DNA of 64,000 nucleotides. It comes from Chrysomallon squamiferum (taxonomy: Eukaryota; Animalia; Mollusca). The stretch covers positions 1,302,001 through 1,366,000 of the forward strand of contig CM022670.1 in assembly GCA_012295275.1 (NCBI GenBank), given 5' to 3'. Shown piece after piece: positions 313 through 49,425 of the stretch. The notes below the pieces were generated by a model, which saw only the letters and a list, made by a program, of their open reading frames with translations, was not told the origin of the DNA and searched no databases. The number at the start of each line of letters is the position of its first letter. Position 1 is the stretch's first letter. The translations under genes and the position numbers were made by a program.

Positions 313-435
313 CTGTATTATCCGCATTCGCACCTTCTCCGCCTCCTGCTAGTAAATAACTTCCAAAGCTCGATGTGCCACCGTCCCCCCCATAGGAAGC
401 TTGTACATCCCCGTCTCTACCCCCACCCCCTCCTC
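313..435 (-). CDS. Locus A exon 7: glycine-rich domain (GGGGGGRDGDVQASYGGDGGTSSFGSYLLAGGGEGANADNTG); gene probably continues beyond the left edge
   Basis: ctcgttctag| acceptor, ACA G|gtataa donor; 123 nt, phase 1 to 1; continues exon 6 in frame to give VICIGGGGGG...GGTSSFGSY..AGGGEG; G-rich island in AT-rich DNA. Confidence 0.85.
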
Positions 436-922
436 CTAGAACGAGAGATTTCCAGTTATATATTATCTTTATTTAGAACAGTTTAAAATATTTCGTAAAT
501 TGAAATGAACAAATATATATATATATGAACAAATAAAATAAATAAATATAGTAAACTAATTAATTGACTGATAAATACTATACTATTCAGGAGTTAATGC
601 ATAAAAAAAAAAAAAAAAAAAACAACGCACAAACCGCACAAAACACACACACACACACATACACGCAAAAAAGAAACCCACACCAAACAATGGAATATAA
701 TATAACGGAACATAACATAAACAACAAAACAATAAAAACAAATGAAAAAAAAAAAAAAAATAAAAAAAATATAAAAAAAAAAAAAAAAAAAAAAATATTG
801 TAATCCTTATTATACAAAATAGCACAGAGAAGATTAGATCTTGCGAACCTAACGTTCTCGAGCAGTTTTCGTTATTACTACGTAATTATCTCCAGTTACA
901 CTGACAGACGTCAACTACTCAC

Positions 923-1051
923 CTATACAAATAACATCCACTTTGCTGACAAACGACGGCACGGTAAAAACATCATCTTTCAAAAACTGTTTTCTGGTAT
1001 ACTCAACTTTGTCCCAAGTTACTGGTGTTGGTTGTGTTGTTGTTATGAATT
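923..1051 (-). CDS. Locus A exon 6: Thr/Pro linker and start of glycine-rich domain (EFITTTQPTPVTWDKVEYTRKQFLKDDVFTVPSFVSKVDVICIG)
   Basis: ttttcag| acceptor, ATA G|gtgagt donor; 129 nt, phase 1 to 1, open frame; F-x4-FTVP-x2-V-x-KVDVICIG is the typical start of phage-tail-type glycine-rich domains. Not in the ORF track. Confidence 0.85.
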
Positions 1052-1564: not shown

Positions 1565-1784
1565 CATTAGAAATCGTCAAAGTCCAGGTATCTGCTTTGT
1601 AACAGCCTGAAAATGATTTGACTGGTCCCCACCTGACATCAAGCAGTTTGAGTAATCCGGGCGTGTCACCACCATTTGAATCGTCACCAGTAGCAGAGGA
1701 CCAGTGCATTTTCTTCACCAGAACGTATTTAGAAAGGTACACATCACTTAGTTCCGCAGAACTGAGGTGCTCGTAATAGCTAAA
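1565..1784 (-). CDS. Locus A exon 5: C-terminal half of the family domain (FSYYEHL...GDDSNGGDTPGLLKLLDVRWGPVKSFSGCYKADTWTLTISN)
   Basis: ttccag| acceptor at 1785/1784, phase 0; phase-1 donor AAT G|gtaaaa at 1565/1564; read-through gives a stop at 1545-1547 (possible short isoform). Homologous to terminal exons of B and C. Confidence 0.85.
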
Positions 1785-2286: not shown

Positions 2287-2588
2287 CAAAAGTACAGCTG
2301 TTAAATGAACGTGTCTGTTGGAATGGATGATCCACTTTATGGGCTCATAGCTCGACAAAGCTAAAACAATAGGTTTTCTGGTTTCTCCTCTGATGTACAC
2401 GTTTGTCGTGACCGCTGTTGGAGGTCGGGTACGGGTTTTACCTCTGTATATGCCGAGCAGGTGCACGTCGTAGTCTTCCACGTCGATGTTGTTGACACAG
2501 CTGTATACTTTTTGTTCAGTGCCCTCCAACGTCGCTGTGGAAAGGGCGTTTGGGTTGTTTGGAAGGACCCTGCAGTTGCCCACCTCAG
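2287..2588 (-). CDS. Locus A exon 4: N-terminal half of the family domain (PEVGNC...DVHLLGIY...KPIVLALSSYEPIKWII...AVLL)
   Basis: ttttcacag| acceptor, TTG|gtacac donor; 302 nt, phase 1 to 0; same length and splice positions as 13069-13370; clear homology to three paralogues in the window. Confidence 0.9.
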
Positions 2589-2938: not shown

Positions 2939-3049
2939 GTAAACAAGTGTATCTGTTGTATCCTGGTTTACGACACACACAGTATCCATTCAGACATTTA
3001 GCATTGTATGAGCCGCGGCAGAACTTGCTACAAGATTTCCTAGGTAGGT
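2939..3049 (-). CDS. Locus A exon 3: EGF-like module NLPRKSCSKFCRGSYNAKCLNGYCVCRKPGYNRYTCL
   Basis: 111-nt symmetric phase-1 exon, tgtttcag| and |gtatgt; six cysteines with a CxC motif; identical length and homologous to exons at 13662-13772 and 16571-16681. Not in the ORF track. Confidence 0.9.
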
Positions 3050-5290: not shown

Positions 5291-5689
5291 CTCTCTATGA
5301 ACAGGTTTTGTCAAAAACGTCGCCATCACCACCGTAACAACGACCAATACAACCGCGATCACAAGAACTACTACAACTTCTCTTCTGGGGCTGGTAGAAC
5401 GTGGTGAGGTCGAAACGCTGTCATCAGCTTGATCCGAAACAATTCTAAGGTTGAAACATTCCCTCTCTCCACTGGAACCGTTTGCGACGGTCGCGCGACC
5501 GGCTTCTGCATCAACGTCGTCGACGTTGTAAATAACAACACCGTTGGAATTAGTTCCGCCAGAATTCGAAGACATCACTTCGTTGTAACTAGGCGGAGAT
5601 GGCACCGAATCGGCTTTCACGAAGCCGTTGCTCGGACAGATTTCTTCGTAAGGAGGCGGAAAGTCACTGAAAACAGTGTCCGCTGACAT
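5291..5689 (-). CDS. Locus A exon 1: cytoplasmic N-terminus (PPPYEEI, PPSYNEV) plus transmembrane helix of a type II membrane protein
   Basis: ATG at 5689 in gaaATGT context; 133 codons of non-repetitive, GC-richer sequence; hydrophobic stretch VVVVLVIAVVLVVVTVVMATFL preceded by RR; phase-0 donor GAG|GTTGGT at 5291/5290, just before the ORF runs into (AAT)n. Confidence 0.85.
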
Positions 5690-9318: not shown

Positions 9319-9430
9319 TAAACAGATACTGATATATATACATACACGTATACATAGACAAATACACAAAAACACATCATTAACAACTTCTCTCTGTGCG
9401 CTAGCGTATATATGTGGAAAACAACAATAC

Positions 9431-11284
9431 ACAGCTATACTACTGTATAAAATCGCAAACAGCTATACTACTGTGTAAAATAGCAAACAGCTATACTACT
9501 GTATAAAACAGCAAACAGCTATACTACTGTATAAAACAGCAAACAGCTATACTACTGTGTAAAACAGCAAACAGCTATACTACTGTGTAAAACAGCAAAC
9601 AGCTATACTACTGTGTAAAACAGCAAACAGCTATACTGCTGTGTAAAACAGCAAACAGCTATACAAAAACAGCAAAAACAGCTATACTATGTGTAAAACA
9701 GCAAACAGCTATACTGCTGTGTAAAACAAACAAACAGCTATACTGTGTAAAACAGCAAACAGCTATACTATTGTATAAAATCACAAAACAGCTATACTAC
9801 TGTCTAAAACAGCAAACAGCTATACTACTGTATAAAATAGCAAACAGCTATACTACTGTGTAAAACAGCAAACAGCTATACTACTGTGTAAAACAGCAAA
9901 CAGCTATACTACTGTGTAAAACAGCAAACAGCTATACTGCTGTGTAAAACAGCAAACAGCTATACTATTGTATAAAATCGCAAACAGCTATACTACTGTG
10001 TAAAACAGCAAACAGCTATACTACTGTGTAAAACAGCAAACAGCTATACTACTGTGTAAAACAGCAAACAGCTATACTATTGTATAAAATCGCAAACAGC
10101 TATACTACTGTGTAAAACAGCAAACAGCTATACTACTGTGTAAAACAGCAAACAGCTATACTATTGTATAAAATCGCAAACAGCTATACTACTGTGTAAA
10201 ACAGCAAACAGCTATACTACTGTGTAAAACAGCAAACAGCTATACTACTGTCTAAAATAGCAAACAGCTATACTACTGTGTAAAACAGCAAACAGCTATA
10301 CTACTGTGTAAAACAGCAAACAGCTATACTACTGTGTAAAACAGCAAACAGCTATACTATTGTATAAAATCGCAAACAGCTATACTACTGTCTAAAACAG
10401 CAAACAGCTATACTACTGTATAAAATAGCAAACAGCTATACTACTGTATAAAATAGCAAACAGCTATACTACTGTGTAAAATAGCAAACAGCTATACTAC
10501 TGTGTAAAATAGCAAACAGCTATACTACTGTGTAAAACAGCAAACAGCTATACTACTGTGTAAAACAGCAAACAGCTATACTACTGTATAAAACAGCAAA
10601 CAGCTATACTACTGTGTAAAACAGCAAACAGCTATACTACTGTGTAAAACAGCAAACAGCTATACTACTGTGTAAAAAAATAAACAGCAAACTATACTGT
10701 GTAAAAAAAGCAAAAGCTAAAAATCGCAAACAGCTATACTATTGTAAAAATCAGCAAACAGCTATACTACTGTGTAAAACAGCAAACAGCTATACTACTG
10801 TGTAAAACAGCAAACAGCTATACTACTGTGTAAAACAGCAAACAGCTATACTACTGTGTAAAACAGCAAACAGCTATACTGCTGTGTAAAACAGCAAACA
10901 GCTATACTATTGTATAAAATCGCAAACAGCTATACTACTGTGTAAAACAGCAAACAGCTATACTACTGTGTAAAACAGCAAACAGCTATACTACTGTCTA
11001 AAATAGCAAACAGCTATACTACTGTGTAAAACAGCAAACAGCTATACTACTGTGTAAAACAGCAAACAGCTATACTACTGTGTAAAACAGCAAACAGCTA
11101 TACTATTGTATAAAATCGCAAACAGCTATACTACTGTCTAAAACAGCAAACAGCTATACTACTGTATAAAACAGCAAACAGCTATACTACTGTATAAAAT
11201 AGCAAACAGCTATACTACTGTGTAAAACTAGCAAACAGCTATACTACTGTGTAAAATAGCAAACAGCTATACTATTGTATAAAA
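9431..11284. repeat. 28-bp tandem satellite, about 66 copies, consensus AAACAGCTATACTACTGTGTAAAACAGC
   Basis: Directly visible array of ~1.85 kb with recurring variant units (ACTATTGTATAAAATCGC, ACTACTGTCTAAAA, ACTACTGTATAAAATAGC); no unique spacers. Confidence 0.97.
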
Positions 11285-11714
11285 TAATTGTGAATCAATA
11301 AAATGCTGTTGGACTTTTTCTTAAAATAACCAAAAAAGAAAGATAACGACGACAACAGCAACAACAACAGTAAAATAATGGTGATGACAATGATGATGAT
11401 AAAATAAATAAACAAACAAACAAACCAATAAATAAATAAATGAAAAAGCAAACAAGCATAAATAAATAAATAATAAAATAATGAAATATATTTTCAGTTA
11501 CAATATATTATCATGATTCTCATCAGAAACATTAACTTCATCATTATCAGGTCATCATTTGAATTAAAATTGCTAAAGGTAATAACTGTTGTCCTAGCTG
11601 TTGCGATTTTACCTGAAAATGTTGTCGCAGTATTTATATTAATTGTTGGTGGCATAGTAACAGTCTGTATTTCTGTATTAAATTTTCCAATGGATTCTGT
11701 GAGTGCAACAAACC

Positions 11715-11914
11715 CGGATATAACAAATATACCAGTTTACGTGAGTGAAATATCGTCTTTTATTATACTGGTAGGAGGAAAGACCCCAAACAAACCCAAA
11801 GACCAGAATGAAATAAGAAAATAGAAAAACTAGTTGAGCCAGTTGCTAAAAATATGTCCAGTCAATGTGAGATCGCCGTATATTTTTATTATTATCACTG
11901 TTGTTGTTGTTCAT

Positions 11915-47800: not shown

Positions 47801-48756
47801 TCAGTATTCGGTTCCTTGTCACAAAGGCAGTGGATGTTTGCACGACCCCAGGCTTAAATGCGTTCGACACGAGATGAAAGTTAAATAATATGATATTCCA
47901 TACTTGTATACTTAATATTAAATTACTACTGTAAATATACGTTATATATTAAGTAAGGTAAAACTTCGGTCCGTGTACCTGTTAAGTAACAGTTTTGTTT
48001 AAAAGTCGGTGTGTGGTATATTACTGAAAAATATACACGAAAGTCTACGCCGCTTTGCTAGTCAGAAGTTAGCGGTGAATGCAGGTTATCGATCTAACAG
48101 TTGTGAATTATCTACAATCTCTGCCAGCGACCCAACACGCCACTGTCAGGCAGGTAGAGTTCGACAGCGCTGGAAGAAAACCAACACGGGTTATGAAAGT
48201 TCTCCATACGTCGCTGAGATCACACGGCAGGTTTTTACGACAAACAAGTTTTGCCTGACGCTTTTTGTCTGATTCGAGATCGCAGAGCAGCATGTTACAA
48301 ACCAGTTCGTCTGCTGTTGCGACCCAAAGCTCAACCCTCTCGTAGCTGCGGGTCCGAGTCGAGCGCAGTGTTAAGTAAACATCGTATCAGTTTCCGAGGA
48401 GCCAATGGAGAGAGAGCCGAGGTGACAGTCAGTGCCGTGTTTTCAGAACTGGCTTCACACTGGTTTATGGAGAGAAGGGATATATACGCGTGTACAGCTA
48501 GATGTTTACTGGTATGACTCTTTTCTCAAAACATGTGGGCGACCAGTGAAGTTTTATTATGACGCAAAAGTCGTCTGGTTTCGCATGTTCAAACTTTGGT
48601 GACTGTTGTTGATGACATCAGTAGAAAAGTTTTTATCAAGCTTCTGTTCGTATTTACAAACAAGTCGTTTCTAATCTCGCTCAATTCTTATGAGCGTATT
48701 TGTTTAGTCGAGGACTATAAAGAAGTGAAATTGTGCCGAACGAGAACATTGGCGAC

Positions 48757-49425
48757 ATGGAGTTCGGTACGCTTGCTAGCGATGTGTTGTATTCTTCGAG
48801 GGATATACCTGGTGGTTCCACAGATTTCTGTCGAGTTCTCGAGCAGATTCGAATAATGGATGAAAGTGAAGGATCCAGAGTGTGCGAAATAAAAGAAACG
48901 AAATACGACAAAAAGAAATCGAAAAAAGACAAAGATAAATCGAAATCGAAATCGAGCGGTGAAAACAACAACAGATTCTGGCGTTTGAAGAGACACCAAA
49001 ACAATCGGGTGGAATCCCCGACTGGTGCCGATTCTTCACGAACACAAACGGCACCTACGTCCACCCATTCCGATCAAACGCAGTGCAAGTACAGTGATTC
49101 CGAAAACGCTCGGAAACCTCGAGAGACAGTTCACGCACAAATCGGCAGCACGCACAACCCCAACTTGTTAGGGTTTTCGGGGATTGACGATGAAGAATTC
49201 CGCCAAAGATCGAAGAGTGACTCTTCGGCTATGGCTCCCCGAAGACGTCCGGTAGTGGTGTCACCCATAGATTCGTTGCACGTGCATTGGCCGGACGAGC
49301 GGAAAGGAGCGAGGTTAACGACAACACTTCGGCCAAGATCGTTTTCTCACGGAGCGACCGGGATGCCTCACAAACCCATTCTGAAGAAAGGAGCCTCGGG
49401 ATCATTACGACCTGAATATTTTTAA
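48757..49425 (+). CDS. Uncharacterised, largely disordered 222-aa ORF (single-exon gene or first coding exon of a larger gene)
   Basis: Longest non-repetitive ORF in the window; GC-richer than the flanks; gacATGG start with an in-frame stop upstream (48718); Lys-rich NLS-like tract, RxRxxS motifs (RQRSKS, RPRSFS), LHVHWPD, KPILKK; preceded by a CpG-rich ~1-kb region with CCAAT (~48402) and TATATA (~48481). No family recognised. Confidence 0.7.
   Translation: MEFGTLASDVLYSSRDIPGGSTDFCRVLEQIRIMDESEGSRVCEIKETKYDKKKSKKDKDKSKSKSSGENNNRFWRLKRHQNNRVESPTGADSSRTQTAPTSTHSDQTQCKYSDSENARKPRETVHAQIGSTHNPNLLGFSGIDDEEFRQRSKSDSSAMAPRRRPVVVSPIDSLHVHWPDERKGARLTTTLRPRSFSHGATGMPHKPILKKGASGSLRPEYF

What the first reader, a model, noticed from the sequence alone, without database searches (positions are those of the whole stretch)
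313..1051. Intron-containing glycine-rich domain of phage/bacterial type in an animal gene (possible ancient horizontal acquisition)
Seen: spliced sequence KQFLKDDVFTVPSFVSKVDVICIGGGGGGRDGDVQASYGGDGGTSSFGSYLLAGGGEGANADNTG, split by a phase-1 intron in the first glycine. Established: this motif set is common in phage tail-fibre and bacterial surface proteins; in animals the best-known related fold is the ALK/LTK ligand-binding region. Inference: the motif looks closer to the phage/bacterial form; the introns argue against contamination and for a domesticated gene.
Basis: partly seen in the sequence, partly recalled or inferred. Interest (0 to 1): 0.75.

Follow-up and report, generated by a model that had tools for sequence, protein, structure and literature searches.

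The report
Phage-tip glycine domain in invertebrate receptors
An intron-split animal (likely snail) gene encodes the start of a glycine-rich domain related to phage tail-fibre tips; the same reordered domain occurs in amphioxus and other snails, so it is likely an old animal building block, predicted to act as a surface binding head, rather than a recent gene transfer.

Summary
Exons 1051-923 and 435-313 (minus strand, GT-AG, phase 1) end a seven-exon, stop-free 438-aa model that runs off the window. The model has a predicted type II membrane anchor, an EGF-like repeat, a betaglycan-orphan-like domain and the start of a glycine-rich domain. The spliced piece beats all 10,000 shuffles on a cyanophage PF21722 profile.

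Its best relatives are animal: amphioxus (60% identity, beside the same EGF+orphan module) and three gastropods. These carry a reordered domain, with about 33 residues moved towards the C-terminus. That order also occurs in uncultured phages, one bacterial locus and the amoeba Pelomyxa. The modelled amphioxus domain matches the phage Pam3 and Bxb1 tips better than ALK.

So it is phage-like and domesticated, but probably predates the mollusc-chordate split. The tree names no donor and does not reject a phage sister. There is no RNA support for the splices. This scan reported related domains earlier in bacteria and a protist, none in an animal among the 8 notes shown. Verdict: a new variant of a known domain; ancient transfer is plausible but unproven.

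The parts
313..435 (-). Exon 7 (phase 1-1): glycine run, GG-D-GG-TSSFG motif and next strand of the glycine-rich domain; the gene continues beyond the window start
   Evidence: aligns without a long gap to amphioxus P0004/P0174
436..922 (-). 487-nt GT-AG phase-1 intron inside the first glycine; lies where cyanophage-type domains carry ~33 extra residues; no hidden exon found
923..1051 (-). Exon 6 (phase 1-1): Thr/Pro linker, then the first two beta-strands of the glycine-rich domain (from about base 998)
1565..1784 (-). Exon 5 (phase 0-1): second half of the betaglycan-orphan-like domain; read-through of its donor would stop at about base 1546
2287..2588 (-). Exon 4 (phase 1-0): first half of the betaglycan-orphan-like domain
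   Evidence: profile of four window copies hits betaglycan 9fdy at E 2.6e-5
2939..3049 (-). Exon 3 (phase 1-1): six-cysteine EGF-like repeat
   Evidence: 72% identical to Gigantopelta P0005
4352..4382 (-). Exon 2 (31 nt, phase 0-1): predicted linker exon, the least certain part of the model
   Evidence: splice signals and phase fit only
5291..5689 (-). Exon 1: predicted cytoplasmic N-terminus with two PPxY motifs, then one hydrophobic helix (type II anchor)
   Evidence: same N-terminus and anchor in Gigantopelta P0006, E 3e-9

Best explanation
Exons 6-7 encode the start of a reordered PF21722-like glycine-rich domain that is likely the outermost binding head of a predicted type II membrane receptor, and that animals have likely carried since before the mollusc-chordate split. 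Shown: the exon model, the homology, and the reordered strand order in amphioxus, gastropods, Pelomyxa and uncultured phages. Predicted: a small TNF-like beta-sandwich from which glycine-rich extended segments bundle outward, as in the Pam3 fibre tip. Inferred: variable loops at the tip bind an extracellular ligand (protein or microbial surface), the EGF-like and orphan-like domains form a stalk or second binding site, and the cytoplasmic PPxY motifs recruit WW-domain ligases for uptake. Also inferred: the domain moves between mosaic proteins as a unit bordered by phase-1 introns. Its ultimate source is likely the phage/bacterial/giant-virus pool, with date and donor unknown.
For: Seven exons, all GT-AG, matching phases, 438 aa with no stop. 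Exons 3-5 align across their junctions with Gigantopelta P0005, 61% over 226 aa. Amphioxus P0004 was found through the neighbouring module, not through glycine, and carries the same domain next to it: 54.9 bits; B. belcheri 59.7% over 67 aa. A profile search found 6 proteins among 7989 candidates scored: 2 amphioxus clusters, Lottia, Pomacea, Nucella, and Pelomyxa at E 2e-5. The segment that cyanophages hold at profile 27-70 sits near the C-terminus in P0004 and in all five aligned animal domains. Fold matches: Pam3 fibre Z 10.7, rmsd 3.4, 142 aligned; Bxb1 Z 7.8; TNF folds next. [quoted passage not shown] Module swapping: Gigantopelta relatives carry TARSH_C instead, and gastropod copies follow LDL-receptor-B repeats. 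Three B. lanceolatum isoforms begin at the residue matching the window's exon-7 donor, indirect evidence for a shared intron.
Against: No RNA shows any splice, and exon 5 could end the protein at about base 1546, as the three upstream copies end in stops there. About two thirds of the domain lies outside the window, so the reordered C-terminal part is inferred for this gene. The fold model is of the amphioxus domain, from 5 sequences, mean pLDDT 68, with residues ~100-155 under 50. Only 1 of the 150 best orphan-module hits carries this domain. The tree does not star an animal clade and does not reject the window grouping with phage rows (p-AU 0.118 and 0.385). Pomacea ranks below several cyanophage domains. 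No ligand is known.
Confidence: 0.62

Rival explanations
1. Recent or lineage-specific horizontal transfer from a phage or bacterium into this mollusc, followed by intron gain.
For: Exon 7 is 55-61% identical to cyanophage tail proteins over 40 aa. AU tests do not reject window + phage groupings. No copy was found in other Gigantopelta-like hits.
Against: Amphioxus is twice as close in score as any phage (57 vs 28 bits) and shares the reordered layout and the neighbouring module. No close prokaryotic or viral relative by pattern plus tblastn in three collections or in phages and plasmids. Only weak matches in 3 of 802 bacterial genomes searched. Third-position GC of exons 6-7 (0.33, 0.35) is at the low end of the other exons (0.39-0.57), not foreign-looking.
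Confidence: 0.05
2. No transfer at the animal stem: the reordered domain was already in early eukaryotes and was inherited vertically with many losses, while viruses exchange copies with hosts.
For: Pelomyxa P0178 has the reordered domain behind a B-box. L115, among B-box, NHL and HD genes, is of protist or giant-virus type. Animals + Pelomyxa + L115 group at 75/84, unstarred.
Against: Only one named non-animal eukaryote was found. No sponge, cnidarian, choanoflagellate or fungal hit appeared, though that search scored only 7989 candidates of 376-2000 aa. The order is much commoner in viral contigs (23 of 26 pattern hits).
Confidence: 0.3
3. Exons 6-7 belong to a separate gene or a decayed leftover, and the membrane protein ends after the orphan-like domain.
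For: The exon-5 donor is moderate (G|gtaaaa) and read-through gives a stop 12 bases later. The three upstream copies end that way. The cluster holds deleted and inverted pieces.
Against: Phases match, exon 6 begins with a Thr/Pro linker like the one after the same strand in P0005, both exons are open and conserved, and amphioxus joins the two modules in one protein.
Confidence: 0.15
4. The domain derives from the animal ALK/LTK glycine-rich domain.
For: ALK and LTK chains appear in the Foldseek list, at E 0.23-0.88; same broad fold class (recalled).
Against: No ALK_LTK family hit for any animal copy. Phage families are hit instead (PHROG 863 by 5 of 5 copies, best E 5.9e-8). The domain is ~214 aa, against ~280-350 aa for the ALK/LTK chains listed.
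Confidence: 0.03

Closest known systems
Pfam PF21722 Gly_rich_2 / PHROG 863 (cyanophage tail-fibre proteins such as P-RSM6 YP_007675223.1)
   Same: Opening strands, glycine run, GG-x-GG-xSSFG motif and closing strand; the spliced piece scores 37 bits on a profile of such domains; the ESM Atlas points to PF21722 clusters at 0.88-0.90, lead level only
   Different: About 33 residues (a glycine segment and two strands) are moved towards the C-terminus; animal copies stay below the 24.3-bit cut-off; gastropod copies add conserved cysteines; split by introns
Cyanophage Pam3 tail fibre gp24 (7YPX) and mycobacteriophage Bxb1 tail tip chain Q (9D93)
   Same: Best solved matches: Z 10.7 and 7.8; TNF-like sandwich plus glycine-rich bundle
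   Different: Only 142-148 of 214 residues align; these are virion fibres, whereas the window's is a module of a predicted membrane protein
ALK/LTK TG (glycine-rich) ligand-binding domain, PF12810 (accession recalled)
   Same: Animal cell-surface protein using a TNF-like plus glycine-rich fold (recalled; weak Foldseek rows)
   Different: No family hit, smaller, no kinase seen, opposite predicted membrane orientation; probably a separate animal lineage of the fold
Uncharacterised mosaic proteins XP_035673048.1 and XP_019626214.1 (Branchiostoma), XP_009049285.1 (Lottia), XP_025100012.1 (Pomacea), KAL8605942.1 (Nucella)
   Same: Same reordered domain; amphioxus also has the EGF+orphan module
   Different: Amphioxus versions add Frizzled, Ig and trypsin domains; gastropod versions follow LDL-receptor-B repeats; none is shown to have the type II anchor
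Betaglycan/endoglin orphan domain (9B9F, 9FDY, 6MZN, 5I04)
   Same: The ten Foldseek hits with E under 0.001 for the neighbouring module are all betaglycan or endoglin; two cysteines and the VH-V/L and P-V-L-V-L motifs align
   Different: One copy fused to an EGF-like repeat, no ZP domain seen; TGF-beta binding untested

Membership tests
PF21722 Gly_rich_2 | Reaches the curated cut-off (24.3 bits) | tested here: not met
   Window exons alone: no hit. Full homologues: P0174 19.1, P0178 17.9, P0175 16.4 bits; P0176 and P0177 no hit at E 0.05; amphioxus domain best E 0.00058. The spliced window piece was not scanned against Pfam.
PF21722 Gly_rich_2 | Profile homology beyond glycine bias | tested here: met
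   37.2 bits vs glycine-fixed shuffle max 21.7, 0 of 5000; three seed phage proteins pass the PF21722 cut-off
PF21722 Gly_rich_2 | Standard order of segments (second glycine run and strand pair right after the first) | tested here: not met
   The window matches profile 6-34 and 68-98; amphioxus holds 27-70 near the C-terminus
TNF-like + glycine-rich (TG-type) fold | Beta-sandwich with glycine-rich bundle like Pam3 gp24 | tested here: met
   On the amphioxus homologue only: Z 10.7, rmsd 3.4, 142 aligned; model pTM 0.75
TNF-like + glycine-rich (TG-type) fold | Polyproline-II geometry of the glycine segments | not testable with these tools
   The tool gives only helix/strand/other; glycine segments are 'other' and partly low confidence
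ALK/LTK glycine-rich domain | Sequence family hit | tested here: not met
   No ALK_LTK hit at E 1 or E 0.05
ALK/LTK glycine-rich domain | Structural match | tested here: inconclusive
   Foldseek E 0.23-0.88; not among the 50 VIA rows shown; the second-look job could not be run
Horizontally acquired, lineage-specific gene | Best hits non-animal and absent from distant animals | tested here: not met
   The top five of 144 are animal, led by amphioxus
Horizontally acquired gene (ancient) | Animal clade nested with support inside viral or bacterial sequences | tested here: inconclusive
   Base of the tree unresolved; animal clade not rejected (p-AU 0.59) and not starred
Betaglycan/endoglin orphan-like domain (neighbouring module) | Sequence and fold match | tested here: met
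   E 2.6e-5 for the window-exon profile; Foldseek E 6e-8, TM 0.48-0.53, for the Gigantopelta homologue, model pLDDT 93

The most novel reading that the evidence does not exclude
A reordered phage or giant-virus tail-tip domain was captured once by an ancestor of bilaterians, independently of ALK/LTK. It gained phase-1 introns at its borders and has since been shuffled as a mobile binding head among invertebrate receptors and proteases: a second, overlooked animal family of the phage-tip fold, perhaps used to recognise microbes.
Probability: 0.35. Interest if true: 0.7.

Novelty: new variant of a known kind. Interest (0 to 1): 0.47.

Why it matters
In animals this fold is known to me only from ALK/LTK (recalled). 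A second family, in a different strand order shared with uncultured phages and possibly giant viruses, gives a natural comparison for how the fold entered animals and how polyglycine bundles tolerate reordering. It also names two unannotated mobile modules of invertebrate mosaic proteins: this one and the EGF+orphan-like module. The domain superfamily itself is large and known, and transfer is unproven, which limits the score.

Tried and rejected
No host genome is held, so the downstream exons could not be read.

RNA check: of 20 runs listed I laid 4. Three RNA runs gave no cover; the fourth gave DNA-type contigs over 806-1051 and no joint. This is no evidence either way.

Word-indexed protein searches with single exons found nothing (0 of 261 and 0 of 58 candidates). 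PDB sequence searches with glycine-rich profiles gave 0 hits.

My first idea, a 33-residue deletion or a lost exon, was rejected: no such exon scored in six frames (best E 0.71) and homologues show relocation instead. The idea that animals made the new order by exon shuffling is not excluded, since the intron sits at the insertion point and one B. belcheri copy is annotated without most of the moved segment. It is not needed, because intron-less phages have the same order.

No viral relatives of L115 were found. The weak scorpion-toxin Pfam hit on exon 3 (17.4 bits, cut-off 25.1) was rejected; the exon is EGF-like.

Literature: 'PF21722' gave 0 papers. Searches showed no paper on this animal family, judged from listings only. 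De Munck 2021 is not held. Passages of bioRxiv 10.1101/2023.11.25.568672 added nothing on origin. Look-ups of earlier notes by sequence and by place were empty. No complex prediction was run.

Full report
Observation. The window is AT-rich, microsatellite-laden animal DNA. On the minus strand, exon 1051-923 ends in G|gtgagt and exon 435-313 starts after ttctag; the 487-nt intron falls in phase 1 within the first of six glycines. I built an HMM from 115 distinct viral domains related to a cyanophage protein that passes the PF21722 cut-off. The spliced 84 residues scored 37.2 bits. None of 5000 shuffles and none of 5000 glycine-fixed shuffles reached this (max 14.8 and 21.7). The match is real. 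No RNA run covered the region, so splicing is inferred.

The gene. Five more exons upstream (5689-5291, 4382-4352, 3049-2939, 2588-2287, 1784-1565) have GT-AG borders and matching phases, giving 438 residues with no stop. Exon 1 holds two PPxY motifs and a hydrophobic helix preceded by arginines, which suggests a type II anchor (inference). Exon 3 is a six-cysteine EGF-like repeat. Exons 4-5 form a betaglycan-orphan-like domain: a profile of the four window copies hits betaglycan at E 2.6e-5, and the modelled Gigantopelta homologue (pLDDT 93) returns only betaglycan and endoglin among its ten significant Foldseek hits. The EGF+orphan module has 372 hits at E up to 0.001. I looked up names for 25 of the best 150; those named include a sponge, gastropods, bivalves, echinoderms, hemichordates and amphioxus. 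The closest protein is from the gastropod Gigantopelta (61% over 226 aa), so the host is probably a gastropod.

Animal relatives of the glycine-rich domain. One of those 150 hits, amphioxus XP_035673048.1, carries the same domain beside the same module; it was found without using the glycine-rich sequence. A profile search then returned 6 proteins of 7989 candidates scored (376-2000 aa only): two amphioxus clusters, Lottia, Pomacea, Nucella, and weakly the amoeba Pelomyxa. With the window piece as query against 144 domains, the ranking was amphioxus 57.3, 56.0, 55.8; Lottia 36.1; Nucella 34.0; best cyanophage 28.1; Pelomyxa 27.7; Pomacea 26.6 bits. The gastropod copies were found with a profile that contained window exons, which favours them slightly. 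The window copy is closer to amphioxus than to other snails, which suggests two old paralogous lines (inference). Three B. lanceolatum isoforms are annotated as starting at the residue that matches the window's exon-7 donor; this hints at a shared intron, but I could not read that DNA.

Reordered domain. The window matches cyanophage profile positions 6-34 and then 68-98. The skipped part is not in the intron. In amphioxus it lies near the C-terminus, as in all five aligned animal domains. This probably explains why the copies fall below the Pfam cut-off. A DNA pattern for the reordered C-terminus found it in frame in 23 of 26 viral-contig hits, 7 of 14 metagenome hits (one more truncated) and 1 of 3 bacterial-genome hits, the last among phage-like genes. 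The pattern fixes certain codons, so these counts are minimums. The order is therefore not an animal invention.

Fold. The amphioxus domain model (5 sequences, pLDDT 68, pTM 0.75, middle poorly predicted) matches the Pam3 fibre (Z 10.7) and the Bxb1 tail tip (Z 7.8), then TNF folds. ALK and LTK appear only weakly. In predicted viral structures the best hit is Satyrvirus A0A3G5AF42 (E 7e-12, TM 0.69, 32% identity), then uncultured phages. Satyrvirus occurs in a paper on soil giant viruses (PMC6243002, search listing only); I could not read that protein's sequence. [quoted passage not shown] PMC13243192 (passages) lists ALK/LTK, S16 gp38 and Bxb1 among PPII-bundle proteins.

Origin. I built a tree of 25 reordered domains. 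Nine near-duplicate, multi-domain or truncated loci were left out at the start and six more near-duplicates before the run. It has a starred gastropod group (97/91), window + amphioxus at 89/77, Pelomyxa + L115 at 81/92, and an unresolved base. An animal clade is not rejected (p-AU 0.59). Neither is the window grouped with either phage set (0.118, 0.385), as it fills only 24% of columns. The tree names no donor. Searches for close prokaryotic or viral relatives of the animal form were empty or weak (3 of 802 genomes).

Mechanism. The most likely reading is a membrane-anchored recognition protein whose outermost module is this domain, binding through variable loops as phage tips and ALK do (inferred; no ligand known). 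Its partners differ between species: TARSH_C replaces it in Gigantopelta, and LDL-receptor-B repeats precede it in other snails. With phase-1 borders, this fits exon shuffling of a symmetric module (established for animal extracellular proteins; recalled). The main structural doubt is the link between exons 5 and 6.

Verdict. A real, domesticated, phage-like domain, old in animals and patchy in the data searched. It works like the Pam3/ALK binding heads by prediction, and it is not a formal member of PF21722 or of the ALK family. I found no paper on it in the searches named under Tried and rejected; most subscription journals are not covered and no supplements were read.

Noticed in passing
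window 18756-12443 (-): Three more copies of the orphan-like module (18756-18400, 16691-15548, 13782-12443), the last two with their own EGF-like exon; each ends in a stop after the last strand. The first has lost the stretch spanning the intron between its two halves.
   Followed up: partly
window 11600-11745 (+): Inverted, frame-broken fragment of the EGF-like exon, 84% identical over 19 aa to Gigantopelta P0005.
   Followed up: partly
window 9403-11286: Tandem array of about 28-bp units, roughly 90% alike, between the gene and its paralogues.
   Followed up: no
window 5689-1565 and P0001-P0150: The EGF+betaglycan-orphan-like unit is an apparently unannotated mobile module from sponge to amphioxus, and related repeats occur in bacterial-type proteins fused to sigma-70, BlaR1 or RCC1 domains. 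It may deserve its own study.
   Followed up: partly
P0095 (JGI/IMG, unnamed): A probably prokaryotic protein pairs three orphan-like repeats with a standard-order glycine-rich domain (PF21722 21.5 bits), the same domain pairing as the window gene.
   Followed up: no
L115:1477-2274 (-): Metagenome contig with the reordered domain among B-box, NHL and HD genes; protist or giant virus, not determined; groups with Pelomyxa in the tree.
   Followed up: partly
window 48721-49425 (-): A 234-aa open frame that looks like a real exon of an unrelated gene.
   Followed up: no
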